Source: Myxococcales bacterium
Lineage (GTDB): Bacteria; Myxococcota_A; UBA9042
Direction: 5' to 3'
Assembly (NCBI GenBank): GCA_037441385.1
Contig: JBBISH010000137.1
Coordinates: 1-15,569 of the forward strand
Length of the DNA stretch: 15,569 nucleotides
A program made the translations under genes and the position numbers. The notes under the pieces were generated by a model. It worked only from the letters and a program-made list of their open reading frames with translations. It did no database searches and had not been told where the DNA came from. This document shows positions 241 through 15,567 of this stretch, piece by piece. Numbering within the stretch: position 1 is the stretch's first letter; each line of letters begins with the position of its first letter.

Positions 241-568
241 CTACGCCGCCACGTCGACCACCGGCAGCTTGTCCGCGAAATCGACCCGAAGTCATCGCCG
301 ATGGCCAGATCCCGCCCAATCGCGCCGATGCCCTTGGGGAAAGCTCGCGCGGCGGCCGGGGCAGTGCTCCGTTTCTCGGCGCCAGACCAGTTGGGTCTCC
401 TTTGGCACGACTTCAGTCGGCATGCTCAAGTGTTTCGGGATCTTCTTGACCGCCGTGGCCAGAGTCATCACCGCAATCGGCCGGATCCCAGGCCGGGTAC
501 GCCTTGACGGCTTTGTGCAGCTCCTGCACCGAATCTCGAGTTTTTTCGGGGTCGCCGACGCCGGTGTA
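241..568 (-). pseudogene. Probable frameshifted 3' remnant of an unidentified gene
   Basis: Successive GC3-rich segments in shifting minus frames: YTGVGDPEKTRDSVQELHKAVKAYP / GIRPIAVMTLATAVKKIPKHLSMPTEVVPKETQLVW / ARAFPKGIGAIGRDLAIGDDF / VDFADKLPVVDVAA-stop (TAG at 243-241). The 5' side is cut at the CTAG at 569-572. Confidence 0.35.
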
Positions 569-588
569 CTAGGAGCGTGTCGGACTAA
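569..588 (+). mobile_element. Lone IS5-family/MITE-like terminal sequence CTAG-GAGCGTGTCGGACTAA
   Basis: Resembles GGAGCCTGTCGGACT-type terminal inverted repeats inserted at (C)TAG (recalled, unverified). I found no partner inverted repeat and no transposase in the window. Confidence 0.3.
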
Positions 589-847
589 CTCGGGTTTGTC
601 GTACTTGGCAAACGCTGTACAACCGACGAGTTTGGTGCCAGTCTTGCGCCCAACAACGGGTACCTTGGCGCGCTGCGGCCGCTCGCGCGATCCGCCGCCG
701 CCGGTGGCGTGCCGCGGCTACCGAACGGGGAACGACATGGGATTGACCAAGTGGATGCCGGCTCCGTCCGAATCGGATCGCCAACTGGGGCAGCTCTTTG
801 GGCCCGAACCAGGGCCCCCATCTGATTCTCGCCTGTTGCAGGCCGGG

Positions 848-3800: not shown

Positions 3801-6562
3801 GCGACCCGACCAGCGGCTGCACCAGCGCGGCCACCGGCGGCGGCTGCGACGACGGCAACGCGTGCACCAGCCTGGACCACTGCCAGGGCGGAGCGTGCCT
3901 GGGCGGCGGCAACGCCTGCGATGACCAAAATCCATGCACCGACGACAGTTGCAAGGCCGGCGCCTGCAGCCACGCCGCCAATAGTGCTCCGTGCACCGAC
4001 GGCAGCGCCTGCACGACCCAGGACACCTGCCAGGGCGCGGTTTGCGTGGGTGGCACCAAGCTGGACTGCGACGACAAGAATTCATGCACTTTTGACGGCT
4101 GCGCGGCAGCGAGCGGTTGCTTGCACGCGGTCTCGGCGGCCACCTGCGACGACGGCGACGCGTGCACGAGCGGCGACGCGTGCCAGAATTTGGACGGCGT
4201 GGGCCTGTGCCGCGGTGCCACGCTGGACTGCAATGACCAGAACCTATGCACTTCAGATAGCTGTGACAAGATCGCCGGTTGCCAGCACAGCCCCAACACG
4301 GCCCCGTGCAACGACGGCGACGCATGCACGACCCAAGACGCCTGCAAAGACGGCAACTGCGCAGCCGGCAAGGCAAAGAACTGCGACGACGGCAACATTT
4401 GCACGCAAGACCTGTGCGTCGCCGCCAGCGGCGCCTGCGCCAACACCGACGTCGCCGCGACCTTGTGCGACGATGGCAAACCGTGCACCGACGACCTTTG
4501 CCACCCCATCCTTGGCTGCAGCCATGTCAACAACGCGGCGGCCTGCAGCGACGGCGACGCGTGCACCACCGGCGACGGCTGCAGCGGCGGCAAGTGCAGC
4601 TCGACGGGCACGCAGACCTGCAGCGATGCCAAGGTGTGTACCGACGATTCATGTGACCCCAAGCAAGGTTGCGTCTTCACGCCCAACTCCGCAGCCTGCA
4701 ATGACGGCCTTGGCTGCACCGTGAGCGACACCTGCAAGGACGGCAGTTGCACCGGCAAGCTCAGCTGCGACGACCAGAACTCTTGCACGGCCGACAGCTG
4801 CGACTTTGGCACGGCGACGTGCGCCCACCAGAGCCTGGACGGCCAAACCTGCGACGACGGCGACGCTTGCACGGCCGAGAGCTTATGCAAATCGTCGACT
4901 TGCCAGGCGACCAAACCCAAGACTTGCGACGACGGCAATCTGTGCACCGACGACAGTTGCGACAAACTCAAGGGCTGCCAGACCGTGAACAACACCGCCA
5001 GTTGTTCGACCGGAACCTGCACAGGCGGCGATGCTTGCGCCGCGGGTAGCTGCAAGTCGTCCGGCAAGGCGCTGCTGCACGTCTGGAACTATGACGACCC
5101 TGACTACAACATTGCCGAGGATCTCTGGCATGTTGCACCCGTGGCCGACGGCGGCTGGGTGGCCGTGGGCGCGCGACGCAACACCTGCTGCGGCGCCAGC
5201 CAAGACGCGCTGGTGGTTCGCTTTGGGCCGGCCGGGACCGTTTCCTGGACCAAAGTCCTAGACTTCTCGTCGGGTAGCTACGATTGGGCCGAGCACGTCT
5301 CGGTCGAGGCCAACGGTACACTGGTGGTGCTGGGATCGACCAACACCGCACTGGAAGACGGCTTTGTCGCACGGCTTTCGCTGGCCGACGGCAGCCTGCT
5401 CAGCAAGGCTATCTGGGTCACGTCGACCACGGCGGTCTACGAGGAGCGAGTGTGGACGGCGGCCCGAGTCGTGACCGCGAACGGCGTGCGCTGGTTGGCG
5501 GCGGGCGGTCGCCACGTGAACGCTGCGGGGGCCAACGCCGACGGCTTTGTGACCCAGGTCGCCAGCGACGGCACGGTCGATTGGACGGTGATCCTAGACG
5601 ACAACCCAGGAAACACGACCGATTTGACGGTCACCGGGGTCGCATCGACCCCCGACGGCGGCTTCTATCTTGCGGGTTCGACCAACGCCCCATCGTCGGC
5701 GGCCGGCGCCGATGGCAAAGTGGCCAGCGGCCTTGGCAGCCAGGACATCTTCTTGGCCCGCTACGACTCCAAGCGGGTCTTGCAGTGGTTCCGGCGGCTT
5801 GGCGGCAACAACTTCGACTTTGCCCACGGCGTGGCCACCTTGGCCGATGGCGGCGCGATTGTCACCGGCACCTTTGGCGGTCTTGACGCCTACATCGCCC
5901 GCGTGGACGGCAGCGGCACGACCACCTGGTCCACGCAGATCGACGCCGGCAGCGGCGGCTACGACTACGGCGGCAACCCGCTCATCTGGCCTGACGGCAC
6001 CGTGGGGCTGTGCTGGTGGGGCGCCTTCCAAGGCAACGGCCCGTGGCCCAACATCAGCAGGTACGACCCGGCCGGCAAGCTCTTGTGGAACAAGACCTAT
6101 ACGACCTCGTCACCCGTTGAATTTGCGCAATTGGCGCTGTTGCCAGGCGGCGGCCTGATCGGCGTGGGATCGCTGCTCTACGGCGCCTCGCGCGGCGGCC
6201 TGCTGGTGCGCGCCGACCCTTGGGGCGAATCAAGCTGCGGCGTCAGCAAGGCATGCGCCGAAAAGGACCCCGCGACCTGCGACGACGGCGAGCCCTGCAC
6301 CTGGAACAGCGGCTGCGACGGCAGCACCGGCGCATGCCTGCAAAAATCGGCCACTGGCGCGTGCCAAGATGGCAACGCCTGCACGAACGGCGACACCTGC
6401 CAAAACAGCGTGTGCACAGGCGGCCCTGCGGTGCTCTGCAACGACAACAACCCGTGTACCGCCGACTGGTGCGATACCGGCAAAGGCTGTCAAACGTCGA
6501 CCTATCCCGACGGCTTCGCCTGTGCCACCGGCAAGACTTGTTTGGCCGGCGTCTGCCAGTAG
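848..6562 (+). CDS. Giant (~1900 aa) Cys-rich repeat surface lipoprotein with Dictyostelium-type CTxDxC repeats and a probable beta-propeller domain
   Basis: Open frame 269..6562. The start is more likely TTG 848 (or ATG 737), giving RRRWTFWAALALSVGA-C with the lipobox Cys at 932-934. Then a D/A/G/S/T-rich linker (~935-1280), Cys repeats (~1285-5055), a Cys-poor region with propeller-like repeats such as QDIFLARYD..LQWFRRLGG and DAYIARVDGSGTTTWS (~5060-6225), and a Cys-rich tail ending CATGKTCLAGVCQ. Confidence 0.9.
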   Translation: MAKPFTRGSNGVRRRWTFWAALALSVGACGSQPGATPATQDVAPSDAASSGAASSDVDGSTADTAADQSGPDGAGDSGPSAFDAGDAAAPPDTTGSGSDAEADTTGGVDTPNGDSWTDAATGAGDTSPDAGSDATAGSDAAVPPATCAAADDCPSAGPCLLPLCSPKHQCQFVPASDGAPCSDGNACTTLDHCSAGQCQGGAALACDDQNPCTADQCNPVKGCINLPTAATAGCDDGDPCTSGDTCMAGQCQPGVAICQCKTTSDCAKYEDGNLCNGSLYCDTSSGAPFTCNPNPASVVVCPGGQDNACQKNTCVPATGECKLLISPKNTPCDDGDSCTSGDVCDQGLCQGGQNTCYCKTDADCASQEDGNLCNGVLFCNKALAQCQVNPVSVVTCQTVDNTFCTQNLCNPKDGKCYYVPVHEGKSCDDGNPCTPNESCQSGQCQTATNTCECQNDMDCLKKDDGDPCNGALYCDLASKKCMTNPATVVHCNTDDDPPCLSDVCDPKTGKCSLIALPKDGTPCDDGNSCTPGSWCQSGQCAAQTNTCECQKDADCLGKEDGDLCNGTLYCDQASNHCLVNPASVVECPSAFDEACLTNQCDKKTGSCGMKPAHQGNQCGSDSPCTAGGWCSYGSCDAPIKGVCQCESDSDCAKLEDGNLCNGTLYCDKTGTDKASKAPQCKVNPATEVVCPTVDDTACQKNTCQPKSGVCQIQVISATCNDGDPCTLADVCKNGGCAGTAVLCEDGDPCTSDTCIKGFGCVALAAAASTCDDGNVCTTDSCVPKLGCVHGYAPGSCDDGSACTGSDACKDGKCVGVVLTCDDGVTCSADSCDPTAGCQHTPVGDGGTCSDGNACTGQDACKGGKCVGVALSCDDKNPCTSDGCDPNAGCTAAAAPGGCDDGNACTSGDSCKSGNCVGTAKTCDDGAACTTDACTPAAGCQFLPVPDGNACSDGSACTTLDACKAGKCAGSILSCDDNNPCTADSCDPTSGCTSAATGGGCDDGNACTSLDHCQGGACLGGGNACDDQNPCTDDSCKAGACSHAANSAPCTDGSACTTQDTCQGAVCVGGTKLDCDDKNSCTFDGCAAASGCLHAVSAATCDDGDACTSGDACQNLDGVGLCRGATLDCNDQNLCTSDSCDKIAGCQHSPNTAPCNDGDACTTQDACKDGNCAAGKAKNCDDGNICTQDLCVAASGACANTDVAATLCDDGKPCTDDLCHPILGCSHVNNAAACSDGDACTTGDGCSGGKCSSTGTQTCSDAKVCTDDSCDPKQGCVFTPNSAACNDGLGCTVSDTCKDGSCTGKLSCDDQNSCTADSCDFGTATCAHQSLDGQTCDDGDACTAESLCKSSTCQATKPKTCDDGNLCTDDSCDKLKGCQTVNNTASCSTGTCTGGDACAAGSCKSSGKALLHVWNYDDPDYNIAEDLWHVAPVADGGWVAVGARRNTCCGASQDALVVRFGPAGTVSWTKVLDFSSGSYDWAEHVSVEANGTLVVLGSTNTALEDGFVARLSLADGSLLSKAIWVTSTTAVYEERVWTAARVVTANGVRWLAAGGRHVNAAGANADGFVTQVASDGTVDWTVILDDNPGNTTDLTVTGVASTPDGGFYLAGSTNAPSSAAGADGKVASGLGSQDIFLARYDSKRVLQWFRRLGGNNFDFAHGVATLADGGAIVTGTFGGLDAYIARVDGSGTTTWSTQIDAGSGGYDYGGNPLIWPDGTVGLCWWGAFQGNGPWPNISRYDPAGKLLWNKTYTTSSPVEFAQLALLPGGGLIGVGSLLYGASRGGLLVRADPWGESSCGVSKACAEKDPATCDDGEPCTWNSGCDGSTGACLQKSATGACQDGNACTNGDTCQNSVCTGGPAVLCNDNNPCTADWCDTGKGCQTSTYPDGFACATGKTCLAGVCQ
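1619..3060 (+). repeat. Five ~96-aa, 14-Cys coding super-repeats (CxCxxDxDCxxxEDGNLCNGxLYC...VNPAxVVxC...)
   Basis: Units begin at 1619, 1913, 2198, 2486 and 2774 (spacings 294, 285, 288 and 288 bp), with conserved Cys spacing in the translation. Confidence 0.9.
3001..5055 (+). repeat. Array of ~24-aa, 4-Cys repeats, mostly alternating two subtypes (CDDxNPCTxDxCDPxxGCxH and CxDGxACTxxDxCxxGxCxG)
   Basis: Read directly from the translation. The consensus matches the Dictyostelium EcmA/EcmB-type repeat (Pfam PF00526). Confidence 0.85.
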
Positions 6563-6621
6563 CTGCGCTGGGTGGCCTCCTTGGTTCCGCGCCGACCGGA
6601 GTCAACGCCGAAATCGAGCCC

Positions 6622-6686
6622 CAAGTCGGGCTCTCAAGTCGGGCTCTCAAGTCCGGCTCTCAAGTCCGGCTCTCAAGTCTGGCTCT
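6622..6686 (+). repeat. Intergenic tandem repeat, 5 x 13 bp CAAGTC[G/C/T]GGCTCT
   Basis: Units start at 6622, 6635, 6648, 6661 and 6674. They differ only at position 7 (G, G, C, C, T). Confidence 0.95.
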
Positions 6687-6787
6687 GCGGGCCCAAGGTG
6701 CCAAACTGGAGTGCGCCCCAGCAGATCGCCCGTGCGCGCCTGCTGTCCAGGCTGCGGTGGCATCGGCCGTCGGGGGGGAGGCTCGAT

Positions 6788-6816
6788 TTGACCCGCCAGT
6801 CATGGACGAGTAGCCT
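6788..6816 (+). promoter_or_regulatory. Putative sigma70-type promoter
   Basis: TTGACC (6788-6793), 17-bp spacer, TAGCCT (6811-6816). Predicted transcription start near 6823. Confidence 0.5.
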
Positions 6817-7029
6817 GCCGACATGGCTCGGATGTCCCGGCCCGGTGAAGCGATGGCAAGACGTTTGCTGCGGAATCCGCCCACGTTGGCTCGAAGACTC
6901 CGGGAATTCTTTGGGTTAGAACGGGGAAACCCATCTGGGTTTCGGTGGTTGTCGACTGTGGCAGCGAAGCCGCAAGGGCGTGAATCAGGTGGGGCTTGCG
7001 GCGGGCCGCACCCTGCCGGCACCAATGCC

Positions 7030-8406
7030 TTGGGCGCAGGGCGCAACCCAGCCCGGCGGCGACCAATTCTCCTGCCGTGGGCGTGGCTGGCGGCGTGCTG
7101 TGCCGCTTGTGTCGAGCTCCCCACCGGTGCAGAGCCGGCGCCAGCGCCGCTGGGCCCGCGCGCTACGGCGACGGCCGAGCTGGCGTTGGTCGACGCACCG
7201 ACCCTGACTCTGGTCGATCCGCCCGAAGGCAAGGTCTACTACGTGGATTACACGGCACCTGCGGCAGTCCACGTTGACATTACCATGCAAATCAATGGCT
7301 TTACGCTTGGGCCGGCCAATGGGATGGTCATCTGCCACGTCAATGGCGGGGGGCCAAGTCTCACCGCCACGTCTGGACTGCTCAAGGGTGTCGATCTTGG
7401 CACAGCCAAGGGTGTTCGAGTGATCTCGTGCACCTTGGCGTTACCCACCACCGGAAAATTGCAGGGGCCGGAAGCAACGGCCAACCTGCACCTGTACATT
7501 GCCCAGGACCCGACCAAGCTCGACGACGCCAACACGTGCAAGACCGACAGCGACTGTGTCGATCCCATGCCGTGCAGCGTTGGCAAGTGCGGGAACGGCA
7601 AATGCAGCTACCTGTATGCCCAAAAAGATCCCGCATGCTGCTCGACGTCGTACGAATGTCCTGCCGGTCGCGTGTGCATCGGCAGCGGACTCGCCGCGTC
7701 GTGCAGCCTTTGCCAGGTCGACAGTCAGTGCGACGACCAAGATCCTTGCACGTTTGACAAGTGCACGCCTGGCACGGGGCTGTGTGCGTTCGTGGCCGGC
7801 GGTGACCCCCTGTGCTGCAAGGTCTCGGCCGACTGCAATGATTACGATCCCTTGACCGAGGACTGGTGCGACGGCAACCACCAGTGCAAGTACAAAGCCG
7901 CCAGCGATGCCAGCGCCACGGACAGCAGCGAGTCGCCCGACGCGTTGGACGCGGCCAGCCCGGGCGACTCCTTGGCGACACCGGACGACCTCGCTGCGCA
8001 AGACGTGGCCATCGCAGAGACGGCTGGCGACGGGGCGAGTGCCGGCGCCGCCGACGCATCCGCCCCCGACGCATCCGCCGCCGACACCAGTTCGGCAGAC
8101 GCGGCGGTCACGCCCGATTTGCCGGATGCGTCCGCTGCGCCGGATGCGCCTGCTGCGTCGCCGGACCAGTCCGACGCAGGCCTGTGCGACTCGCCGGACG
8201 GCTGCGGGCTAGGCGAGGTCGATACGTGCACTGGAGACGCGCAGGTCTGCCACCCCAACGGCACGTCGAGTCCTTCTGGGCCGGCCGACAACGGCTGTAG
8301 CGCGGTGACCTTTGGCGCCCACTCCAGCGCAGAAAAGTGGCTGCTTCTGGTGGTGGCTGGCTTGGCTGCGGCTCGGCGCCGACGTGGCGGCGCGTCGCCC
8401 GCGTAG
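7030..8406 (+). CDS. Cys-rich exported protein with a MYXO-CTERM-like C-terminal sorting signal and a possible N-terminal lipoprotein signal
   Basis: Open frame 6823..8406; start uncertain (TTG 7030 precedes RRRPILLPWAWLAACCAAC). Contains a beta-rich N-domain, CxxDxDCxDxxPC...CC repeats and a D/A/S/P-rich linker. Ends NGCSA (Cys at 8296), hydrophobic WLLLVVAGLAAA, then RRRR. Confidence 0.8.
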   Translation: MGAGRNPARRRPILLPWAWLAACCAACVELPTGAEPAPAPLGPRATATAELALVDAPTLTLVDPPEGKVYYVDYTAPAAVHVDITMQINGFTLGPANGMVICHVNGGGPSLTATSGLLKGVDLGTAKGVRVISCTLALPTTGKLQGPEATANLHLYIAQDPTKLDDANTCKTDSDCVDPMPCSVGKCGNGKCSYLYAQKDPACCSTSYECPAGRVCIGSGLAASCSLCQVDSQCDDQDPCTFDKCTPGTGLCAFVAGGDPLCCKVSADCNDYDPLTEDWCDGNHQCKYKAASDASATDSSESPDALDAASPGDSLATPDDLAAQDVAIAETAGDGASAGAADASAPDASAADTSSADAAVTPDLPDASAAPDAPAASPDQSDAGLCDSPDGCGLGEVDTCTGDAQVCHPNGTSSPSGPADNGCSAVTFGAHSSAEKWLLLVVAGLAAARRRRGGASPA

Positions 8407-8430
8407 AATCCGCGCGCCGGTCAGAGCGGG

Positions 8431-8471
8431 TTGGCGAGGGAGGCTTGGCGAGGGCGGCTTGGCGAGGGCGC
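8431..8471 (+). repeat. Intergenic tandem repeat, ~3 x 14 bp TTGGCGAGGG[A/C]GGC
   Basis: Units start at 8431, 8445 and 8459; the third is incomplete. Confidence 0.9.
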
Positions 8472-8565
8472 GGAACCCATGGGGTAGCCACCGATGTTCT
8501 TTCTAATTCTAGGCGGTTGTGGGATCGGACCGAGAGCGCAGCGGCTCGAATCAGGTGGGGTGCAT

Positions 8566-9459
8566 ATGACCGGCTTGCAGCGTCGCGCGTTCTTGAGGCA
8601 GGCCCTGGTCCTGACTGCCGCGGCCGCGTCGACCCTGCCGGCCTGGCGCAGGGGCCTTGCCCAGCAAGAGCCAGAGTTCAAGGGGCCCACGTTCGCCTTT
8701 CCCCACCAGCCCGACTCCAAGCCCTTGCGCGAGCGGATCCCGCTGCCGGACCATCTGCGTCGTCTGGACCTGGAGCCCCGCTCGTTTGCGGCCTGGGTTC
8801 GCGAACTGCCCGTTAAACAAGAGAATCACGGCGTGTTCGATGCTTTTGGCAAGAAAGTGCTAGAGCCCGAGGCCGCGTATGCCATCGTGGACCTGGACGT
8901 CCGCCGATTCCAGGAGTGCGCCGACACGGCCGTGCGCCTGTGGGCCGAATACCTCTGGTCGCGAGGCGAGATCGGCAAGCTGCACCTGCGGCTAGAAAAT
9001 CGCAGCCCGAATCCCGTGGAACGCGAACTCAGCCAGGCGAATCGCCGGAGCTTGGACCGGTACCTGCACCATCAATACGTTTTTTCAAGTTCGCTGGTTC
9101 TCAAGCGCGACCTGCGGCCCGTGGAGCCGCCCGACGTCTTGCCCGGTGACGCGGTGGTGTTGCGGCCCGAAAGAGCCCCGCAAGGCCACGTGTTCATCGT
9201 GGGCGATGTCGCCGTGGACGCGGCCACTAGTCGCAAGAAGGTCGTGATTATCCAGAGCAATATTCCGGCGCAGAACCTGCACGTGGTGCCGAACCCTCCG
9301 CCGTACGTCGGTTGGGGAAGTGCCTACCGCGACGAGTTCACGCCGGCTGCCGGCAGCGTCGGTCCCCATCCACACGCCTGCTGGCACGACTGGCTGACAT
9401 TCTTTGCCCACACCAAGTACGACATGAACGGGCAGGGGGTGCTCCGGCGCTTTGGCTAA
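8566..9459 (+). CDS. Tat-exported DUF4846-like protein
   Basis: ATG 8566 follows AGGTGGGG. Twin-arginine signal QRRAFL with a hydrophobic stretch. Motifs SFAAWVRELPVK, QECADTAVRLWAEYL, PGD...GHVFIVGDVA and QSNIPAQNLHVVPNP match my recollection of DUF4846. Confidence 0.75.
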   Translation: MTGLQRRAFLRQALVLTAAAASTLPAWRRGLAQQEPEFKGPTFAFPHQPDSKPLRERIPLPDHLRRLDLEPRSFAAWVRELPVKQENHGVFDAFGKKVLEPEAAYAIVDLDVRRFQECADTAVRLWAEYLWSRGEIGKLHLRLENRSPNPVERELSQANRRSLDRYLHHQYVFSSSLVLKRDLRPVEPPDVLPGDAVVLRPERAPQGHVFIVGDVAVDAATSRKKVVIIQSNIPAQNLHVVPNPPPYVGWGSAYRDEFTPAAGSVGPHPHACWHDWLTFFAHTKYDMNGQGVLRRFG

Positions 9460-9519
9460 ATGCGGGGTAGAAAATGCCCCCCAAACCTTCTGCTGCGCCA
9501 ACCCCAAAGAAAGGCAACG

Positions 9520-9548
9520 TTGACGCGCGCCGGGCCGCGGCGTACGCT
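9520..9548 (+). promoter_or_regulatory. Putative sigma70-type promoter for the DUF2167/site-2 protease pair
   Basis: TTGACG (9520-9525), 17-bp spacer, TACGCT (9543-9548), about 125 bp upstream of ATG 9673. Confidence 0.6.
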
Positions 9549-9672
9549 CCATTCGCGAGACGCGACGGTTCGAGTCAGCCGGTACGGGAGCGCTTGCCGC
9601 GGTCGGTGGGCCGATGCCAGCGCCGCAGCGACCCGCCAGGTGCCTCCACCGCCCTCTCTCTGGGAGTCCTGC

Positions 9673-10614
9673 ATGTTCAAGTCCGTCCTCGTCGTCGTCT
9701 TGCTGCTTTCGTCCAGCCTGGCCTTGGCCGCGGACGAGCCCAAAAAGTTCTCCGAAGAGGAATTCTTGGCGTCCCTCCACTTCCAGGACGGCAAGATTGC
9801 GCTTCCCGGCAACATGGCCACGCTGGACCTGTCGCGCGAGTTCCACTACCTGCCGCCGGACGACGCCGAGCGCGTCTTGGTGACAGGCTGGGGCAATCCG
9901 CCGGGAACCAAGTCGCTGGGCCTGATCGTCCCTGCCGCGGTCAGCTTGCTGGACGATGCCGGCTGGGCCGTGGTGGTCACCTACGACAAGGACGGCCACG
10001 TCAACGACGACGACGCCAGCAAGATCGACTTTGACGATCTGCTCAAAGAAATGCAGGAGGGCGTCGTCAAAGCGAACGAGGAGCGCAAAAAACAGGGGTA
10101 TCCGGCTATGCAGTTGGTGGGTTGGGCCGAGCGGCCGAGCTATTCGGCCGAGACCCACAAGCTGTACTGGGCCAAAGAACTGCAAACCAGCGCCCCCGAG
10201 CACACGCTCAACTACAACGTCCGCGTCCTGGGCCGCGAAGGCGTGTTGGTGCTCAACGCCGTGGCCGGCATGAGTCAGATTGGCACCGTTCGCGAAGAGA
10301 TGAAGAAGGTGACGGCGTTCACCGAGTTCACGGCCGGCAACCGCTACACCGACTTCAACGCCAGCACCGACAAGACCGCCGAGTACGGCATCGCCGCGCT
10401 CGTCGCCGGCGGCGTGGCGGCCAAGCTGGGTCTGTTCGGCAAGCTTTTTGCGGTGTTACTCGCGTTCAAGAAGCTCTTCGTCTTGGGGGTTCTGGCGGCG
10501 GCCGGCTATGTCGCCAAGCTCTTTGGCGGGCGCGGCAAAGAGGTGCCCAAGACCGACGCGCCCACGGTTGGCGAGGCCAAGGTTGACGAGCTCAAGGTCG
10601 GCGAAGACCAGTAG
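9673..10614 (+). CDS. DUF2167-family membrane-anchored periplasmic protein
   Basis: ATG 9673 follows GGGAG. Sec signal ends in ALA. Motifs WGNPP, GHVNDDDASKIDFDDLL, GWAERPSY, KLYWAKEL, LNYNVRVLGREGVLVLNAV, GNRYTDF and AEYGIAALVAGG, then a C-terminal hydrophobic/amphipathic segment. Confidence 0.9.
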   Translation: MFKSVLVVVLLLSSSLALAADEPKKFSEEEFLASLHFQDGKIALPGNMATLDLSREFHYLPPDDAERVLVTGWGNPPGTKSLGLIVPAAVSLLDDAGWAVVVTYDKDGHVNDDDASKIDFDDLLKEMQEGVVKANEERKKQGYPAMQLVGWAERPSYSAETHKLYWAKELQTSAPEHTLNYNVRVLGREGVLVLNAVAGMSQIGTVREEMKKVTAFTEFTAGNRYTDFNASTDKTAEYGIAALVAGGVAAKLGLFGKLFAVLLAFKKLFVLGVLAAAGYVAKLFGGRGKEVPKTDAPTVGEAKVDELKVGEDQ

Positions 10615-10682
10615 TACAGGAACGATCTGGATCGGACCGAAAACTCCGGCAATTCTTCGGGACCGAATCGGGGTGGGAACAA

Positions 10683-11393
10683 GTGGGCAAACTCCTGGTC
10701 GGGCTGTTCGTCGCGGGCAAGCTGGGCAAGCTGCTGCTGTCCGGCGGCTCGATGTTGGTATCCGTCTTTGCGTATTCGCTGGTCTTTGGCTGGCGCTACG
10801 CCGTCGGTTTCGTGCTGCTGATCTTCTGCCACGAGATGGGGCACTTCGTCGCGGCCCGGCAGCGCGGTCTAGACGTAGGCTTGCCCACCTTCATTCCCTT
10901 TGTGGGGGCGTGGATCGAGCTGAAACAGCTGCCGCACAACGTTGAGACAGAGGCCTACGTTGGCATCGCGGGGCCGGTCGCTGGTGCCGCCGCCTCGATG
11001 CTCTGCTATTTCGCCGCGCGGCAGACCGATTCCAGCCTGCTGCTGGCGCTGTGCCAGGCGGGCTGCATTCTGAACCTGTTCAACCTGATCCCGCTGTCGC
11101 CCTTTGACGGTGGGCGGATCACGGCCATTCTCTCGCCCAAGATTTGGCTGCTCGGCGCGCCGCTCTTGGTGGGTCTGTTTCTGTGGCGGCCCAGTCCGAT
11201 GCTGATCATGGTGGGTATCTTGGCCTACCCGCAGTTGAAGAAGGCGATCTGGGGCGACCCCAAGCTGCCGCAGGGCTACCACGACGTGGCCATGGAAACC
11301 CGCGTCAACTACGGCGCCATGTACATCGGCCTGGTAGCGTTCTTGGCCACGATGAGCTATTCCCTCCACGAGACCCTGGCGGGCCGCGGCTAG
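10683..11393 (+). CDS. Site-2 protease family (peptidase M50) intramembrane zinc metalloprotease
   Basis: HEMGH (10830-10844), AGP, and NLIPLSPFDG (11082-11111) in a multi-TM protein with a GTG start. No PDZ or CBS domain is apparent. Confidence 0.92.
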   Translation: MGKLLVGLFVAGKLGKLLLSGGSMLVSVFAYSLVFGWRYAVGFVLLIFCHEMGHFVAARQRGLDVGLPTFIPFVGAWIELKQLPHNVETEAYVGIAGPVAGAAASMLCYFAARQTDSSLLLALCQAGCILNLFNLIPLSPFDGGRITAILSPKIWLLGAPLLVGLFLWRPSPMLIMVGILAYPQLKKAIWGDPKLPQGYHDVAMETRVNYGAMYIGLVAFLATMSYSLHETLAGRG

Positions 11394-11633
11394 TGTCGCA
11401 ACAACCGGCCGGGGAGGCTCGGATAGCCGTGGCCACGGCCCGTGCTGCCGCCGCAGCGTCTGGAGACGCCACCAATCGCGGCTGATTCGTTCAGCAATTG
11501 CCCGTTGCGGGCCCGTCCCCAGCCCCAACTGGGGCGCCGGTGACAGCCCGCAGCGACGCGCTGCGCCGAATTCGGAGGCGCGGATTTCCAGAGAAGCGGT
11601 AGACTGATCCAGCCTCAAGAAGGACCCGCAGCC

Positions 11634-12476
11634 ATGGACACACAGCCAGACACACAGCCAGATACGCAGCCAGACACACAGCCAGATACACTGCCAGACC
11701 CGCTCCTTGACCCGGAACAACCGACCGCCGCCGCCGATTTGTTGCCGCAGCTGGGGGAAAGCCGACTGGTGCAGGTTTTCTTTGGTCCCCCGGTCCCTGG
11801 GCTCGACAAGGCGCGCATCTTCTTGCGGTGTGTGGCGATCCTGCTGCCGCTGGACATCGCAACCAAGCTCCTGGCGCTGGCGCTCCTGCCGGCCGACGGG
11901 CGCGAAGTGCCGCTTTTTGGCAACAATGTATTTTCGCTCATGATCAATGACCAGTTCATTGCCAAGAGCCAAGCCGATGCGCTGCGGGCCGCGGGATGGG
12001 ACCACTCGATGACCTTTGTCTACGCCTTGGCCCTGGCGACCGGCTGGGCGCTCATCCTGCCGTTCGCCTCGTGGCGGTGGTCCTTGAAGAGGCGTTTTGG
12101 CCTGCCACTCTTGGTCGTCCTGACGGCGCCGATCGCCGTGCGGCTGACCGAAGACTACGCCGTGGTGAGCAGTTCGCTACCGGTCGTATGCATGCGGGTG
12201 GCCGCTACAACCATCGCGTGCCTGTTGCTGGTTCGCCTGGTCGCAGACGTCACCCTATTCTGGATGCTGGCCATTGCAGAGACCGCCAACCTCGCCAACC
12301 TCGCCAACTGGCTGTGGTATCCAGCAGGCATCGTCGATTTCCTCTACTTTCCAGCCCGGCACAAGTACGTTTTCAATCTGCCCGACTTCGTGCTGCGCCT
12401 GGCGCCCGCGCTGTTGACCTTTGGCCTGGTGGTCGCAACGTGGCGCAGAGTCCGCCGACCCGCGCCGGAGGGGTAG
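11634..12476 (+). CDS. Divergent, enlarged signal peptidase II (LspA, peptidase A8)-like membrane protein
   Basis: ATG follows AAGAAGGA. LspA-like motifs occur in the expected order: LDIATK (11853), IVDF (Asp 12336) and VFNLPD (Asp 12384), then a final TM helix and basic tail. GNxxDR is replaced by ANLANW. 280 aa versus ~150-170 aa for typical LspA. Confidence 0.65.
   Translation: MDTQPDTQPDTQPDTQPDTLPDPLLDPEQPTAAADLLPQLGESRLVQVFFGPPVPGLDKARIFLRCVAILLPLDIATKLLALALLPADGREVPLFGNNVFSLMINDQFIAKSQADALRAAGWDHSMTFVYALALATGWALILPFASWRWSLKRRFGLPLLVVLTAPIAVRLTEDYAVVSSSLPVVCMRVAATTIACLLLVRLVADVTLFWMLAIAETANLANLANWLWYPAGIVDFLYFPARHKYVFNLPDFVLRLAPALLTFGLVVATWRRVRRPAPEG
11637..11699 (+). repeat. Coding tandem repeat, ~5 x 12 bp GACACACAGCCA, encoding (DTQP)4-DTLP-D
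   Basis: Units start at 11637, 11649, 11661, 11673 and 11685, immediately after the start codon. Confidence 0.95.
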
Positions 12477-12735
12477 GCGGCAATTTCTGCTACTTGGAAT
12501 TCTTGAAGAACGGTTGCTCGCGTCCGCGATGCCGGCCACGTGGCGACCATCGTGCGCAACCGCTGTCGGGCCAAGGGCGGCGACGAGACGTTTGACCTGG
12601 ATACGGAGACCCGGTCTGCAACCGGAGAAAATCACGCAGGTGCTCCCGTTCGGGCCCAAAGAATTGCTGGTGTTTTTGAGCCGACTGGCGCGGGATCCGT
12701 ATCACAAGAACCCCGTGTGCCTGCCGCGCGGCCCA
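12477..12735 (+). pseudogene. Possible frameshifted gene remnant
   Basis: Three consecutive GC3-rich segments, each shifted +1: NFCYLEFLKNG / DAGHVATIVRNRCRAKGGDETFDLD / LQPEKITQVLPFGPKELLVFLSRLARDPYHKNPVCLP. No start codon identified and no family recognised. Confidence 0.3.
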
Positions 12736-12789
12736 CCAAGAACTCGGCCAGCAATGGCCGTTTGGGTTGGGGCGGCGCGGCTCGGGCGG

Positions 12790-15567
12790 CTACTTGCACA
12801 CGCCAGCTTGGCAAGTCAGACCCGTGCCACAGCCCAGCCCGTCGACGGCGTTGGTGTACACGCACCCCAACGTCTTGTCGCACGTTTCAAAGGTGCACGG
12901 ATTCTTGTCGTCGCAGTACACCTTTGCGCCGCTGCCGCACACGGAGCTGCTGGAGCACACTTCGCCCGTCGTGCACGCATCGCCGTCGTTGCAGCCGATG
13001 ACCTTCTGCGCCTGGTTGACGCATGCGCTGTTGAAACACAGGCTTGCCGTGCACGGGTCGCTGTCGGCGCACGACCCGATGACCGCCGGGATGCATTTGC
13101 CAGCCGCAACGCACGAGGCGGCGCCCCCTTCGGTGACCCGCAGCGCAAAGAAGTCGGCCGTGCCGTTGCTGGCCATGTGGTAGCCGGCGGCCGTGAGCCG
13201 CCCGCTCGCGGCGTTGCGCATCAGGGCGACCATGCCGTCGTCCAGGTCGCTAATGCCGTAGTCGCTGGTCCAGAACTGGTCGCCGTCGGCATCCAGTGCC
13301 AACAGCCAGGCGTTGGTCTTGCTGCTGTTGCCGGCCTCGGCGCGGCGCCCGGCAAAGAACAGCGCGCCGTCCGGAGCCGCCACCACCGCACGCAGGTCGT
13401 TGGTGGTCCCGCCCGCGATGATCTTTTGCCAAATCAAGGTACCGTCGGCGGTGGTGCGGACGATGTAGGCCTCGGGCACGTTCGACGCCGTGGTGCGGGT
13501 TCCCGCGGCTACCAGACTGCCGTCGGCCAGGCGTGCCACGGCGTGGAAAACCTCGTTGGCCGTGTCGCCAAAGCGCTTGCGCACCTCGCCGCTGAGGTCG
13601 GGCTTTACAAACGTCAAGGTCGCATCGTCGCCACCGCCGCCGCCGGCTTCGTTGGTGCGACCGGCCACGACGACCGAGCCGTCCAGGCCCAGCACGGCGG
13701 CCCGCGGTTCGTTGGTGAGCGTGTTGTACTGGTCGGGGTGTAGGTAGGCCAGCGGCACGCTGCCGTCCGGTTCCACGTTGGCCACCACCAGACGGAAGCT
13801 GTACTCGTCGCGCAAGATCACCGCCGTCAGCACGGTCTTGCCGGCCACCGTTCGCTCGATCAGGGCCACCGGCGTCTGTACACCATTGGACCCGGTGGCG
13901 CAGGGGCCGTAGGCAATCTTGACCACGGGCCCAAAGTTGCCGGCGCTGTCGACCGACGACAGTTGCCCGCACTGGGCCAAGACCCCAGCCACCGCAAGTG
14001 TGCCGTCGGCCCGGCGCAGACTGGCCGTCAAGTTCGCGCCGCCAAGTGACATGGGCCCGATCTTGGTCCAGGCGCGCGCGCCCAGGGCGGTCACTCGGCT
14101 GGTGGCTGCGTACGACGTGTAGTAGGGCGACACGGCGTAAGAGCCCACGGCGATGAAGGAGTCATCGTCGAGCGCCATAGCACTGGTCCACACTTCTTTG
14201 ACGCCTGCCGTGCTCGTGTCGTCGGTGATGTACTTGCTCCAGACGCGGTCCACGCCGCTGCCGACACAGCTGCCGTTTTGGCACGCGTCGCCTACCGAGC
14301 AACCGCCCACGTCGCACGGCGCCTTGTTGGTCTTGGTGCCGCAGCCGGCCGCCGAGTCGCAAAAGTCGTCGGTGCAGACGTTGCCGTCGTCGCACACGAC
14401 CAGCGCACCGCCGGTGCAGACGCCGTTCTTGCATGCGTCGCTGCCGGTGCACGCGTTGCCGTCGTTGCAACTGCCTGCAAGGGCTGCGAACTTGCAGGTC
14501 CCCGTAGTGAAGTCGCAGCCATCGGCGGTGCACGGGTTCTTGTCGTCGCATTGCAGCGTGCCCGTGCACTTGCCCTTGCTGCAGGTGTCGCCCACCGTGC
14601 AGCCAACATTGTCGTTGCATGGTGCGCTGTTGTCGGTGTTCAGGCAGCCCTGTTTGGCGTCGCACGTGTCGTCGGTGCACAGGTTGCCGTCGTCGCAGTT
14701 GAGGCTGCCAAGGCCCTGGCATGTGGCGTTCTTGCAGCCGTCGCCGGTGGTGCACGGGTTGCCGTCGCTGCAGCTCGCGGCGTTGTTGGCGTGGCCGCAG
14801 CCCAGGACTGGGTGGCACAGGTCGTCAGTACACGCGTTCTTGTCGTCGCAACTGGCGCTGATGTCGGTGTTTTGGCACTGGCCGGTGGCGCTGAGGCACG
14901 CGTCCTGGGTGCACACGTTGGCGTCGTCGCACGTCTTGGCCTTGCCGGGGGCACAGCTGCCGCCGCTGCACAGGTCGCCCACGGTGCACGGATTGCCGTC
15001 GCTGCAGCCGGCCTGGTTGGCGCCAGCGGTGCAGCCGGTCTTGGGGTCGCAGCTATCGTCGGTGCACGGATTGCCGTCGTCGCACACTACCTTGATCCCT
15101 TTGCAGATTCCGCCGCTGCAGCTATCGGCCTGGGTGCAGGCGCTGCCGTCGCCGCAGGTCGCGGCGTTGGCGACGTGGACGCAGCCAGCGCCGGCGTCGC
15201 AACTGTCGTCGCTGCAGACGTTGTTGTCATCGCAGTTCTGGGGCGCACCCCCGCTGCAACTGCCTGATTTGCATGAATCATTGCTCGTGCACGCGTTGCC
15301 GTCGCTGCACGGCGCTGCGTTGGCGCTGTGGCTGCAACTGCCCGAGCTGCAGCTGTCGTCGGTGCACGGGTTGTTGTCGCTGCACGCCCCCAAAAGGCCA
15401 AGGCAGACCCCGCCGTTGCAGGTGTCTTTGACCGTGCAGGTGTTGCCGTCGTCGCAGCTTGCGGTGTTTGCCGCGCTGGTGCAGCCGGTCTTGGGGTCGC
15501 AGGCGTCTTCTGTGCAGGGGTTGCCGTCGTTGCATACCAGCGTGACTCCGCTGCACTTTCCGCCGGC
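12790..15567 (-). CDS. Giant Cys-rich repeat protein with a probable beta-propeller; paralog of 848-6562 (5'-partial, runs off the window)
   Basis: The frame stays open upstream of the called TTG 15393 up to the window edge (AGGKCSGVTLVCNDGNPCTEDACDPKTGC...). Same CTxDxC array, a Cys-poor propeller-like region (~13130-14250; EAYIVRTTADGTLIWQK, NAWLLALDADGDQFWT) and the tail CGTGLTCQAGVCK. Confidence 0.92.
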   Translation of the reverse strand, partial: AGGKCSGVTLVCNDGNPCTEDACDPKTGCTSAANTASCDDGNTCTVKDTCNGGVCLGLLGACSDNNPCTDDSCSSGSCSHSANAAPCSDGNACTSNDSCKSGSCSGGAPQNCDDNNVCSDDSCDAGAGCVHVANAATCGDGSACTQADSCSGGICKGIKVVCDDGNPCTDDSCDPKTGCTAGANQAGCSDGNPCTVGDLCSGGSCAPGKAKTCDDANVCTQDACLSATGQCQNTDISASCDDKNACTDDLCHPVLGCGHANNAASCSDGNPCTTGDGCKNATCQGLGSLNCDDGNLCTDDTCDAKQGCLNTDNSAPCNDNVGCTVGDTCSKGKCTGTLQCDDKNPCTADGCDFTTGTCKFAALAGSCNDGNACTGSDACKNGVCTGGALVVCDDGNVCTDDFCDSAAGCGTKTNKAPCDVGGCSVGDACQNGSCVGSGVDRVWSKYITDDTSTAGVKEVWTSAMALDDDSFIAVGSYAVSPYYTSYAATSRVTALGARAWTKIGPMSLGGANLTASLRRADGTLAVAGVLAQCGQLSSVDSAGNFGPVVKIAYGPCATGSNGVQTPVALIERTVAGKTVLTAVILRDEYSFRLVVANVEPDGSVPLAYLHPDQYNTLTNEPRAAVLGLDGSVVVAGRTNEAGGGGGDDATLTFVKPDLSGEVRKRFGDTANEVFHAVARLADGSLVAAGTRTTASNVPEAYIVRTTADGTLIWQKIIAGGTTNDLRAVVAAPDGALFFAGRRAEAGNSSKTNAWLLALDADGDQFWTSDYGISDLDDGMVALMRNAASGRLTAAGYHMASNGTADFFALRVTEGGAASCVAAGKCIPAVIGSCADSDPCTASLCFNSACVNQAQKVIGCNDGDACTTGEVCSSSSVCGSGAKVYCDDKNPCTFETCDKTLGCVYTNAVDGLGCGTGLTCQAGVCK

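What the first reader, a model, noticed from the sequence alone, without database searches (positions are those of the whole stretch)
3880..15567. Two giant paralogs share a repeat-by-repeat collinear Cys stalk but carry strongly diverged propeller heads: a candidate variable receptor/adhesin family
Seen: the stalks align unit for unit, including irregular units (GKAKNCDDGNICTQDLC vs GKAKTCDDANVCTQDAC; CTDDLCHPILGCSHVNNAAACSDG vs CTDDLCHPVLGCGHANNAASCSDG; CNDGLGCTVSDTC vs CNDNVGCTVGDTC; CTADSCDFGTATC vs CTADGCDFTTGTC). In both, a ~370-390-aa Cys-poor domain starts at the same point (CKSSG / CVGSG) and returns to a Cys cap (GESSC / GAASC). The inserted domains share only scattered motifs by eye (LADGG/LADGS, AYI.R....GT..W). 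Inference: a conserved disulfide-bonded scaffold presents a fast-evolving or exchangeable binding head, as in diversified adhesin or prey/kin-recognition families.
Basis: partly seen in the sequence, partly recalled or inferred. Interest (0 to 1): 0.75.

Follow-up and report, generated by a model that had tools for sequence, protein, structure and literature searches.

The report
Giant cysteine-rich stalk proteins with propeller heads
Two old gene copies encode huge secreted proteins in which a long rod of small disulfide-bonded repeats carries a seven-bladed propeller near its far end; they belong to a large, little-studied bacterial family whose rods carry many different end domains, but this pair shows no sign of head swapping or clearly accelerated head evolution.

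Summary
Gene 1 (+ strand, to 6562) and gene 2 (- strand, 12790-15567, cut by the contig end) share 17 Cys units in the same order, ABABABABAABABABAB. Each is followed by a ~385-aa Cys-poor domain and a ~107-aa Cys cap. The stalk is Pfam Dicty_CTDC. Both heads model as seven-bladed SBBP/delta-60-type propellers whose nearest solved structure is CylK.

- Non-Cys identity is 49% in the stalk and 29.5% in the head, but most of the stalk excess comes from the repeat consensus. Out-of-register stalk alignments already give 34-45%.
- At repeat-variable stalk columns, in-register identity is 29-32%, the same as the head.
- Synonymous sites are saturated everywhere, so the duplication is old, there is no recent gene conversion, and dN/dS cannot be computed.
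- Head and stalk trees both recover the clade (gene 1, gene 2, locus L001), so these heads were not exchanged.
- The ML distance between the heads is about twice the stalk distance, mostly on the gene 2 head branch.

At family level the scaffold idea does hold. At least 591 relatives were found, mostly in MAGs titled Myxococcales, Myxococcota or Deltaproteobacteria. In 75 loci, 91 heads fall into 41 sequence clusters, including lectin-like, MAM, LTD, RCC1, FG-GAP, CotH and beta-helix domains. Function is inferred, not shown.

The parts
848..934 (+). Gene 1 (W1): probable lipoprotein signal peptide with lipobox (..WTFWAALALSVGAC; Cys at P0001 residue 222). The start codon is uncertain: TTG at 848 or 836, or ATG at 737 or 755. 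The database model starts at 737.
   Evidence: Motif read from the sequence. No dedicated signal-peptide predictor was run. P0004 start.
935..1273 (+). W1 low-complexity linker rich in Asp, Ala, Ser, Gly and Thr (P0001 residues 223 to about 335).
   Evidence: Read from the translation.
1274..2968 (+). W1 N-terminal Cys-rich region. It includes five composite repeats of about 96 aa, each holding an ..EDGNLCNG.LYCD.. motif (at residues 463, 561, 656, 752 and 848).
   Evidence: motif positions, period 95-98 aa. L001 is collinear with W1 337-940 at 56.5% identity.
2969..3739 (+). W1 middle stalk: further alternating A/B Dicty_CTDC units. The gene 2 counterpart, if any, lies beyond the contig end.
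3740..5065 (+). W1 distal stalk (P0001 residues 1158-1599): 17 Dicty_CTDC-type units in the order ABABABABAABABABAB, collinear with gene 2.
5066..6238 (+). W1 head (residues 1600-1990): predicted seven-bladed SBBP-type beta-propeller. It ends in the subfamily motif R.D.WG...C.
   Evidence: AF2 model with 28 strands and pLDDT mostly 80-94 in the propeller. Foldseek best hit is CylK, E = 4e-21. phmmer finds 33,343 representatives at E <= 1e-3. End motif.
6239..6562 (+). W1 C-terminal Cys cap (residues 1991-2097) with the conserved tail ..DG..C..GK.C.AG.C, plus the stop codon.
14254..15567 (-). Gene 2 (W2) distal stalk (P0002 residues 1-438): 17 units in the same order as W1. The gene runs off the contig at its 5' end.
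13111..14253 (-). W2 head (residues 439-819): predicted seven-bladed propeller of the delta-60/DUF5122 type. Residues 177-236 of the modelled construct have low confidence.
   Evidence: Pfam DUF5122 25.0 bits (cutoff 27) and TIGR02608 34.2 bits (cutoff 76.5). AF2 model. Foldseek best hit is CylK, E = 2.9e-15.
12790..13110 (-). W2 C-terminal Cys cap (residues 820-925) plus the stop codon.
6823..8406 (+). Third Cys-containing protein (P0003, 527 aa). It has one sub-threshold Dicty_CTDC unit, an acidic low-complexity region, and a tail ..GCS..(hydrophobic)..RRRR that looks like MYXO-CTERM. It is context, not part of the paralog pair.
   Evidence: Weak NF045523 match (E = 0.036, 12.6 bits). The MYXO-CTERM description comes from PMC3325183 (passages read).

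Best explanation
W1 and W2 are two anciently diverged paralogs of a large family of giant exported proteins.

Proposed build and action:
- An N-terminal lipoprotein signal would tether the protein to a membrane. This is seen in W1; the W2 N-terminus is missing.
- A low-complexity linker and a long rod of disulfide-bonded Dicty_CTDC mini-domains would hold the far end away from the cell.
- Near the far end sits a seven-bladed SBBP/delta-60-type propeller, closed off by a short Cys cap.
- The rod acts as a presentation scaffold and the propeller as a ligand-binding module. The ligand is unknown; glycan or protein is a guess.

Shown by computation: the domain anatomy, the unit-for-unit collinearity, the propeller fold prediction, the age of the duplication, the congruent descent of stalk and head, and the diversity of end domains in the family.

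Inferred: lipid anchoring, surface exposure, rigidity, and binding.

The stalk looks far better conserved than the head mainly because about half of its positions are Cys or repeat-consensus residues. Its free positions have diverged as much as the head. Heads are replaced on long time scales in the family, but they were not replaced between these two genes.
For: Anatomy:
- Dicty_CTDC scores 116.6 and 145.7 bits against a cutoff of 27.
- The unit order is identical in both genes.

Consensus effect on stalk identity:
- Out-of-register stalk identity is 0.34-0.45 against 0.49 in register.
- Consensus columns give 0.75 in register and 0.665 out of register. Variable columns give 0.29 and 0.166.
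- Variable stalk columns give 0.32 against 0.30 for the head.

Age of the duplication:
- Codon sharing at identical residues equals the codon-usage expectation in the stalk (168 observed, 162.1 expected; z = 0.85), the head (z = 0.50) and the cap (z = -0.35).

Descent of stalk and head:
- The head tree and the stalk tree give the same clade.
- Three-way site counts are close to a trichotomy.

Fold:
- AF2 models have pLDDT 74.2 and 71.8; the W1 model has 28 strands. CylK is the top Foldseek hit for both.

Family:
- At least 591 relatives were found and 75 loci kept, from 46 assemblies, 20 of which contribute two or more loci.
- 91 heads fall into 41 clusters.
- 40 of 89 locus heads match a Pfam family at E <= 1e-3. 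These are mostly binding-type modules: Laminin_G_3, MAM-like, LTD, discoidin-like, Fibrinogen_C-like, RCC1 and FG-GAP.
- A lipobox-like signal is present in 43 of 89 family ORFs that have their 5' end within the locus.
- The nearest-stalk neighbour carries a head of the same cluster in 22 of 59 cases, against 1.9 expected by chance.
Against: - No experiment and no characterised homolog bear on function.
- Curated cutoffs for DUF5122, TIGR02608 and NF047494 are not reached.
- The lipobox was read by eye and by a crude regex, not by a predictor, and 46 of 89 family ORFs lack it by that regex.
- The ML head distance between W1 and W2 is twice the stalk distance. Distant pairs show a floor of 0.17-0.22 at variable stalk columns, while W1-W2 reaches 0.32. 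MSA-based head identity for W1-W2 is 0.26 against 0.18-0.24 for distant pairs. So some extra head divergence, mainly in W2, is real or cannot be excluded.
- The nearest solved structure is an enzyme (CylK), not a lectin.
- The taxon is uncertain.
Confidence: 0.55

Rival explanations
1. Diversifying selection. The heads are fast-evolving recognition surfaces, for prey, kin or phage-related arms races, on a conserved scaffold.
For: - The head ML path between W1 and W2 is 3.38 against 1.69 for the stalk, and the W2 head end branch is 2.06.
- Heads compared alone give only 33 bits.
- No close head relatives were found in two word-indexed searches: best 28% identity for each. In the exhaustive HMMER search with the W1 head the listed local matches reach at most 45% identity.
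- Tandem paralogs L004a and L004b1 also have stalk identity 0.49 against head identity 0.28.
Against: - Variable stalk columns are as diverged as the head (0.29-0.32 against 0.30).
- Divergence is not concentrated in loops: strand positions 60/209 = 0.29, other positions 43/144 = 0.30.
- The L004a and L037 heads are 0.46 identical against 0.26 at variable stalk columns.
- dS is saturated, so no dN/dS supports this reading.
Confidence: 0.17
2. Cassette exchange. One of the two heads was replaced by recombination with another propeller gene after the duplication.
For: - Each head finds better-scoring blade matches in unrelated database proteins than in its paralog. In phmmer at database scale, neither head lists the other.
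- The W1 head's relatives carry SBBP (PF06739), while the W2 head's relatives carry DUF5122 (PF17164).
- At family scale, heads of unrelated folds sit on similar stalks.
Against: - The head tree places W1, W2 and L001 together with support 95/94, as the stalk tree does with 100/99.
- Domain boundaries, the end motif and the C-terminal tail are shared.
- The full-length collinear head alignment has z = 9.6.
- A tree with W1 and W2 held as sisters is not rejected (p-AU 0.258).
Confidence: 0.05
3. Structural matrix protein. The Cys-rich repeats build or cross-link an extracellular matrix or sheath, as the Dicty_CTDC proteins of Dictyostelium are said to do, and the propeller is an assembly module rather than a specific receptor.
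For: - The repeat family is the same as in Dictyostelium extracellular proteins (Pfam name).
- The repeat mass is very large, and a neighbouring Cys-containing protein has a surface-sorting-like tail.
Against: - A lipobox suggests membrane tethering rather than release.
- Many family heads are lectin-like binding modules.
- Nothing tested here distinguishes the two roles.
Confidence: 0.15
4. Enzyme head. The propeller is catalytic, like CylK or like lyases and sialidases with propeller folds, and the stalk only positions it.
For: CylK is the best Foldseek hit for both heads (E = 4e-21 and 2.9e-15). Some family heads are enzyme-like: CotH kinase and FGE-sulfatase.
Against: - Identity to CylK is only 15-18%, with TM-score (normalised by the query) about 0.5.
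- CylK is 633-653 residues against a head of about 390 aa, so the match covers only part of the enzyme.
- Catalytic residues were not compared.
- Other hits are lectins, BamB and designed propellers, so the match is a generic fold match.
Confidence: 0.05

Closest known systems
TraA of Myxococcus xanthus (polymorphic kin-recognition receptor; PMC3325183 passages read; PMC3820747 and PMC6372800 seen only in the search listing)
   Same: Both have a variable recognition domain on a tandem Cys-rich repeat region. The authors propose that region as a rigid stalk for display on the cell surface. Both have paralogs with the same architecture. The authors note a resemblance between the TraA repeats (TIGR04201) and Pfam PF00526.
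   Different: - Polarity is inverted. TraA has an N-terminal PA14 head and a C-terminal MYXO-CTERM anchor. Here there is an N-terminal lipobox and a head near the C-terminus.
- No PA14, TIGR04201 or MYXO-CTERM match was found in W1 or W2.
- The stalk here is several times longer.
- The head is a propeller.
- No evidence of homotypic recognition exists.
Dictyostelium Dicty_CTDC proteins (PF00526), for example the PA14-plus-Cys-repeat signal proteins DicA1/PsiF and PsiA cited in PMC3325183
   Same: They share the Pfam repeat family, well above the gathering score. They are extracellular and disulfide-rich, with repeats combined with a globular binding domain.
   Different: These are bacterial proteins with a lipobox, a propeller head and an alternating A/B unit pattern. 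No functional link is known. No solved structure matches the stalk by sequence (0 hits).
SBBP (PF06739) and delta-60/DUF5122 (PF17164, TIGR02608) beta-propeller repeat proteins, and CylK (PDB 7roo, 7fh6)
   Same: The repeat family is matched at sequence level: 33,343 representatives at E <= 1e-3, and hits carry PF06739 or PF17164. The predicted fold is a seven-bladed propeller, and CylK is the best solved match.
   Different: Curated cutoffs are not reached. The head here is embedded between Cys-rich modules and has its own end motif R.D.WG...C. CylK is a much larger protein (633-653 residues) than the head, and its function is not implied.

Membership tests
Dicty_CTDC (Pfam PF00526) | HMM score above the gathering cutoff (27 bits) with multiple repeats | tested here: met
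   P0001 scores 116.6 bits over 12 stretches. P0002 scores 145.7 bits over 10 stretches.
SBBP / DUF5122 (delta-60) beta-propeller repeats | Curated HMM cutoffs: PF17164 27 bits, TIGR02608 76.5 bits, NF047494 400 bits | tested here: not met
   W2 scores 25.0 bits on PF17164 and 34.2 bits on TIGR02608. W1 scores 30.1 bits on NF047494 and has no PF06739 hit at E <= 0.01.
SBBP / DUF5122 (delta-60) beta-propeller repeats | Significant sequence similarity to family members, and a seven-bladed propeller fold | tested here: met
   phmmer gives 33,343 representatives at E <= 1e-3 and 220 at E <= 1e-30. Hits carry PF06739 or PF17164. AF2 gives 28 strands for W1, and CylK is the top Foldseek hit. These are predicted structures, not solved ones.
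TraA-type receptor | PA14-like N-terminal variable domain | tested here: not met
   No PA14 hit in Pfam for P0001 or P0002 at E <= 0.01. The W2 N-terminus is missing.
TraA-type receptor | TIGR04201 Cys-rich repeats | tested here: not met
   No NCBIfam hit for the stalk even at E <= 10 or for the whole proteins at E <= 0.01.
TraA-type receptor | C-terminal MYXO-CTERM sorting tag | tested here: not met
   W1 and W2 end in a Cys cap (..AGVCQ and ..AGVCK), with no hydrophobic stretch followed by an Arg tail. Only the neighbouring P0003 has a tail of that look, with a weak NF045523 match at E = 0.036.
Bacterial lipoprotein | Signal peptide ending in a lipobox [LVI][ASTVIG][GAS]C | tested here: inconclusive
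   W1 has RRRWTFWAALALSVGAC. This is a motif match only: no predictor was run and the start codon is uncertain. W2 cannot be tested because it is 5'-open.
Hypervariable / cassette-exchanging receptor family | Head phylogeny incongruent with scaffold phylogeny, or excess nonsynonymous change in the head | tested here: not met
   The trees are congruent. Variable stalk columns are as diverged as the head. dN/dS cannot be tested because dS is saturated.

The most novel reading that the evidence does not exclude
These genes belong to an undescribed, very large family of modular 'rod-and-head' surface proteins in uncultured aquatic bacteria, probably Myxococcota. A lipid-anchored Dicty_CTDC rod, with polarity inverted relative to TraA, displays one or several interchangeable binding modules. 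There are dozens of head types, several genes per genome, and often tandem arrays. The family would form a repertoire for recognising prey, particles or kin, with paralogs such as W1 and W2 holding distinct specificities that are then conserved in orthologs.
Probability: 0.3. Interest if true: 0.6.

Novelty: new variant of a known kind. Interest (0 to 1): 0.38.

Why it matters
If the rod-and-head reading is right, uncultured aquatic bacteria invest tens of kilobases per genome in a repertoire of long disulfide-bonded display proteins. The end domains (lectin-like modules, propellers, MAM, LTD and others) could define what the cells stick to or recognise.

That would extend the TraA idea of a variable head on a Cys-rich stalk to a different and much larger repeat family. 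It would also give a bacterial context for a repeat known mainly from social amoebae.

For this particular finding the main value is corrective. Higher identity in a repeat scaffold than in a globular head is expected from repeat consensus alone, and should not be read as fast head evolution without a register-shifted control.

Tried and rejected
- dN/dS between the paralogs was rejected. Codon identity at conserved residues equals the codon-usage expectation in stalk, head and cap, so dS is saturated.
- Recent gene conversion in the stalk was rejected by the same test. Nucleotide identity in 30-codon windows peaks at only 0.79.
- My shuffle baseline for head identity was flawed. Free end gaps allowed short alignments, giving a mean of 0.284, so I use only the score z-value from that call.
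- The unit-type regex labelled every unit 'A'. Its 'same-type' off-register mean (0.336) is therefore an all-units mean. Types were separated properly.
- No synteny was found. None of the 75 loci holds a homolog of the window's DUF4846, DUF2167, M50-like or 11634-12476 genes at tblastn E <= 1e-8. The only P0003 match is one weak hit in L072.
- The listing of cluster members returned no names for 7 head relatives.
- The sequence search of the stalk against PDB chains gave 0 hits.
- The ESM Atlas gave only unnamed clusters plus partial PQQ_2 and SBBP labels.
- Literature searches found nothing on bacterial Dicty_CTDC proteins. 8 papers hold 'slime mold repeat', 'Dicty_CTDC' or 'PF00526', and none is about such bacterial stalk proteins. 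One preprint merely lists the domain in teneurin-like proteins.


Full report
**What is in the window.** The window is a complete 15,569-bp contig; the database gene model P0004 has longest_contig 15569. GC content is about 65%.

Two long ORFs dominate:
- 269..6562 on the + strand (P0001, 2097 aa from stop to stop; the database model is 1941 aa and starts at nt 737).
- 12790..15567 on the - strand, open at its 5' end (P0002, 925 aa).

I call them W1 and W2. Between them lie:
- a third Cys-containing gene (6823-8406, P0003);
- a DUF4846 gene (8494-9459);
- a DUF2167 gene (9460-10614);
- an M50-like peptidase fragment (10683-11393);
- an ORF with no match (11634-12476).

**Checking the observation.** One BLASTP alignment joins P0001 1158-2097 to P0002 3-925 (526 bits, 40% identity).

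The stalks parse into the same number of Cys units. Unit lengths match in 13 of 16. Once the last composite unit is split, both have the same type order, ABABABABAABABABAB, including the irregular A-A doublet.

The register is not an artefact of repetitiveness:
- The Smith-Waterman score is 1499 in register and 979-1057 for equally long windows shifted upstream.
- The best-matching W1 unit is the in-register one for 8 of 16 W2 units among 26 candidates.

Non-Cys identity is 0.49 in the stalk, 0.295 in the head and 0.34 in the C-cap.

The heads alone give just 33 bits over 109 aa in BLASTP. In phmmer at database scale, neither head lists the other. The full-length collinear head alignment still scores 120, against 21.5 +/- 10.2 for shuffles.

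**What the parts are.**
- *Stalk.* It is Pfam Dicty_CTDC (116.6 and 145.7 bits, cutoff 27). No PDB chain matches it by sequence.
- *W1 upstream of the stalk.* It begins with a lipobox-type signal (..ALALSVGAC) and an acidic low-complexity linker. Five composite Cys repeats of about 96 aa follow, then about 27 A/B units.
- *Heads.* W1 matches an SBBP lipoprotein model weakly. W2 matches DUF5122/delta-60 just under the cutoffs. An exhaustive HMMER search with the W1 head finds 33,343 representatives at E <= 1e-3, with 26-45% local identity among the 150 listed.
- *Models.* AF2 models built on a 34-row alignment have pLDDT 74.2 and 71.8. The W1 model has 28 strands, which is seven blades. The W2 model has a low-confidence stretch. 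For both, the best solved neighbour is the propeller of CylK (E = 4e-21 and 2.9e-15). Designed propellers, BamB and Photorhabdus lectins follow.

**Is the head really more diverged than the scaffold?** The stalk is a repeat, so any unit resembles any other. Out-of-register comparisons already give 0.34-0.45 non-Cys identity.

I split stalk columns into repeat-consensus and repeat-variable classes:

| Column class | In register | Out of register |
|---|---|---|
| Consensus | 115/153 = 0.75 | 0.665 |
| Variable | 59/202 = 0.29 | 0.166 |
| Variable, six-protein classification | 62/194 = 0.32 | not computed |
| Head | 102/345 = 0.30 | not applicable |

So the stalk's free positions have diverged as much as the head. 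Within the head, strand and non-strand positions are equally diverged (0.29 and 0.30).

Synonymous codon sharing at identical residues equals the codon-usage expectation in stalk, head and cap (z = 0.85, 0.50 and -0.35). The duplication is therefore old, there is no recent gene conversion, and dN/dS cannot be estimated.

A modest excess does remain:
- ML path lengths between W1 and W2 are 1.69 in the stalk and 3.38 in the head. The W2 head carries the longest end branch, 2.06.
- Variable stalk columns sit clearly above their floor (0.32 against 0.17-0.22 in distant pairs).
- MSA-based head identity for W1-W2 is only a little above its floor (0.26 against 0.18-0.24).

**Relatives, and whether heads are exchanged.** 75 loci were kept, from 46 assemblies, 20 of which contribute two or more loci. 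Record titles say Myxococcales or Myxococcota in 36 loci and Deltaproteobacteria in 8; the rest carry other labels.

In these loci I found 103 Cys-rich ORFs. Counting the window's two heads, there are 91 Cys-poor domains of at least 140 aa that follow a stalk. They fall into 41 BLAST clusters.

Pfam names 40 of the 89 locus heads at E <= 1e-3. The names include Laminin_G_3, InhA-like MAM, LTD, weak Fibrinogen_C, ALK/LTK Gly-rich domain, Lcl_C, CotH, four RCC1 propellers in one protein, FG-GAP with a cadherin-like domain, beta-helix/NosD, CARDB, PKD, a discoidin-like domain and FGE-sulfatase. The other 49 have no match. Some proteins carry two to four heads separated by short Cys linkers. At family level, then, the stalk is a scaffold for many unrelated end modules.

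Heads and stalks nevertheless mostly descend together. The nearest-stalk neighbour has a head of the same cluster in 22 of 59 cases, against 1.9 expected by chance.

The window's heads cluster only with those of L001, L004 (three heads) and L037. These share the end motif R.D.WG...C and the tail DG..C..GK.C.AG.C.

L001 is collinear with W1 over the whole stalk (56.5% and 51.9% identity), but its gene is split over three reading frames.

The head tree and the stalk tree both recover (W1, W2, L001), with support 95/94 and 100/99. The inside of the clade is unresolved. Three-way site counts are close to a trichotomy. There is therefore no sign that either window head was swapped.

In the likely orthologous pair L004a and L037, the head is better conserved (0.46) than variable stalk columns (0.26). 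The tandem paralogs L004a and L004b1 look like W1 and W2 (0.28 and 0.28). This fits heads that differ between paralogs and are then held by purifying selection.

Word-indexed searches found no close relative of either head; the best hit was 28% identity for each. This is weak evidence, because only about 8,000 candidates were scored in each search.

**Most likely mechanism.**
- *Shown by computation:* the anatomy, the fold prediction, the age of the duplication, the congruent descent of stalk and head, and the family-wide head diversity.
- *Inferred:* export and lipid anchoring through the lipobox. A similar motif occurs in 43 of 89 family ORFs with an intact 5' end, by a crude regex. Also inferred are oxidative folding of the repeats into a long rod, display of the propeller away from the cell, and ligand binding by the propeller.

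Rivals are diversifying selection on the heads, cassette exchange, a structural matrix role, and an enzymatic head. Each is weighed in its own section.

**Comparison with what is known.** The nearest described concept is TraA of Myxococcus xanthus. TraA has a PA14 head, Cys-rich repeats (TIGR04201) proposed as a rigid stalk, and a MYXO-CTERM anchor. Its authors note a resemblance of those repeats to PF00526 (PMC3325183, passages read).

W1 and W2 are not members of that family. No PA14, TIGR04201 or MYXO-CTERM match was found, and the polarity is inverted.

I found no paper on bacterial Dicty_CTDC stalk proteins. Searches for 'Dicty_CTDC', 'PF00526' and 'slime mold repeat' returned 8 papers, none on this subject. 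Two of them were checked by passage.

**Open problem.** The taxon is not settled. The DUF2167 gene in the middle of the contig has its best named relatives (60-70% identity) in Oxalobacteraceae and in 'Pseudomonadota bacterium' MAGs. The giant genes point to Myxococcota-labelled MAGs. GC3 is uniform across the contig (0.74-0.87). The closed collections (metagenome contigs, viral contigs) were not searched.

**Verdict.** The family is large, modular and apparently undescribed in print. The specific claim of a fast-evolving or exchangeable head in this pair is not supported beyond a roughly two-fold excess in ML distance.

Noticed in passing
window 9460-10614 (+), with 8494-9459 and 10683-11393: The DUF2167 gene's best named relatives (60-70% identity) are from Oxalobacteraceae (Duganella, Massilia, Pseudoduganella, Janthinobacterium) and 'Pseudomonadota bacterium' MAGs. 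Relatives of the giant genes sit mostly in Myxococcota-labelled MAGs. GC3 is uniform across the contig and none of the 75 related loci shares these neighbours. The cause could be horizontal transfer, mislabelled MAGs, or a non-myxobacterial host; this is unresolved.
   Followed up: partly
window 6823-8406 (+): P0003 is a 527-aa protein with a Cys-rich middle (one sub-threshold Dicty_CTDC unit) and a long Asp/Ala/Ser-rich region. Its C-terminus..GCS..LLLVVAGLAAARRRRGG, looks like a MYXO-CTERM sorting tag. The only support is a weak NF045523 match (E = 0.036).
   Followed up: partly
window about 1600-2970 (+), P0001 residues about 445-900: There are five tandem composite repeats of about 96 aa (C.C...D.DC....EDGNLCNG.LYCD......C..NP..VV.C...). 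Each ends in a Dicty_CTDC-like unit. Pfam names nothing beyond Dicty_CTDC. The region is conserved in L001 at 56.5% identity.
   Followed up: partly
L001 (SXNM01000255.1) 1965-7306: The closest relative of W1 is split over three overlapping reading frames, with frame changes opposite W1 residues about 940-945 and about 1513. This is either assembly error or a pseudogene.
   Followed up: partly
L003, L004, L031, L073 and others: Some family members carry two to four heads in series, separated by short Cys-rich linkers. L073 has four RCC1 propellers and L031 has four MAM-like domains. Several loci hold two or three giant genes in tandem.
   Followed up: partly
C-termini of W1 and W2 (window 6500-6559 + and 12793-12850 -) and of the L001, L004 and L037 proteins: All six propeller-head proteins end with a conserved Cys tail..DG..C..G(K).C.AG.C, followed by 1-4 residues. 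Its role (a folding cap or a sorting signal) is unknown.
   Followed up: no
record titles (for example L004, L006, L009, L037, L043): Thirteen of the 75 loci come from MAG records titled 'uncultured Enterobacteriaceae' or 'Klebsiella pneumoniae', although their gene content matches the Myxococcota-labelled loci. These titles look like mislabels and were not used for taxonomy.
   Followed up: no
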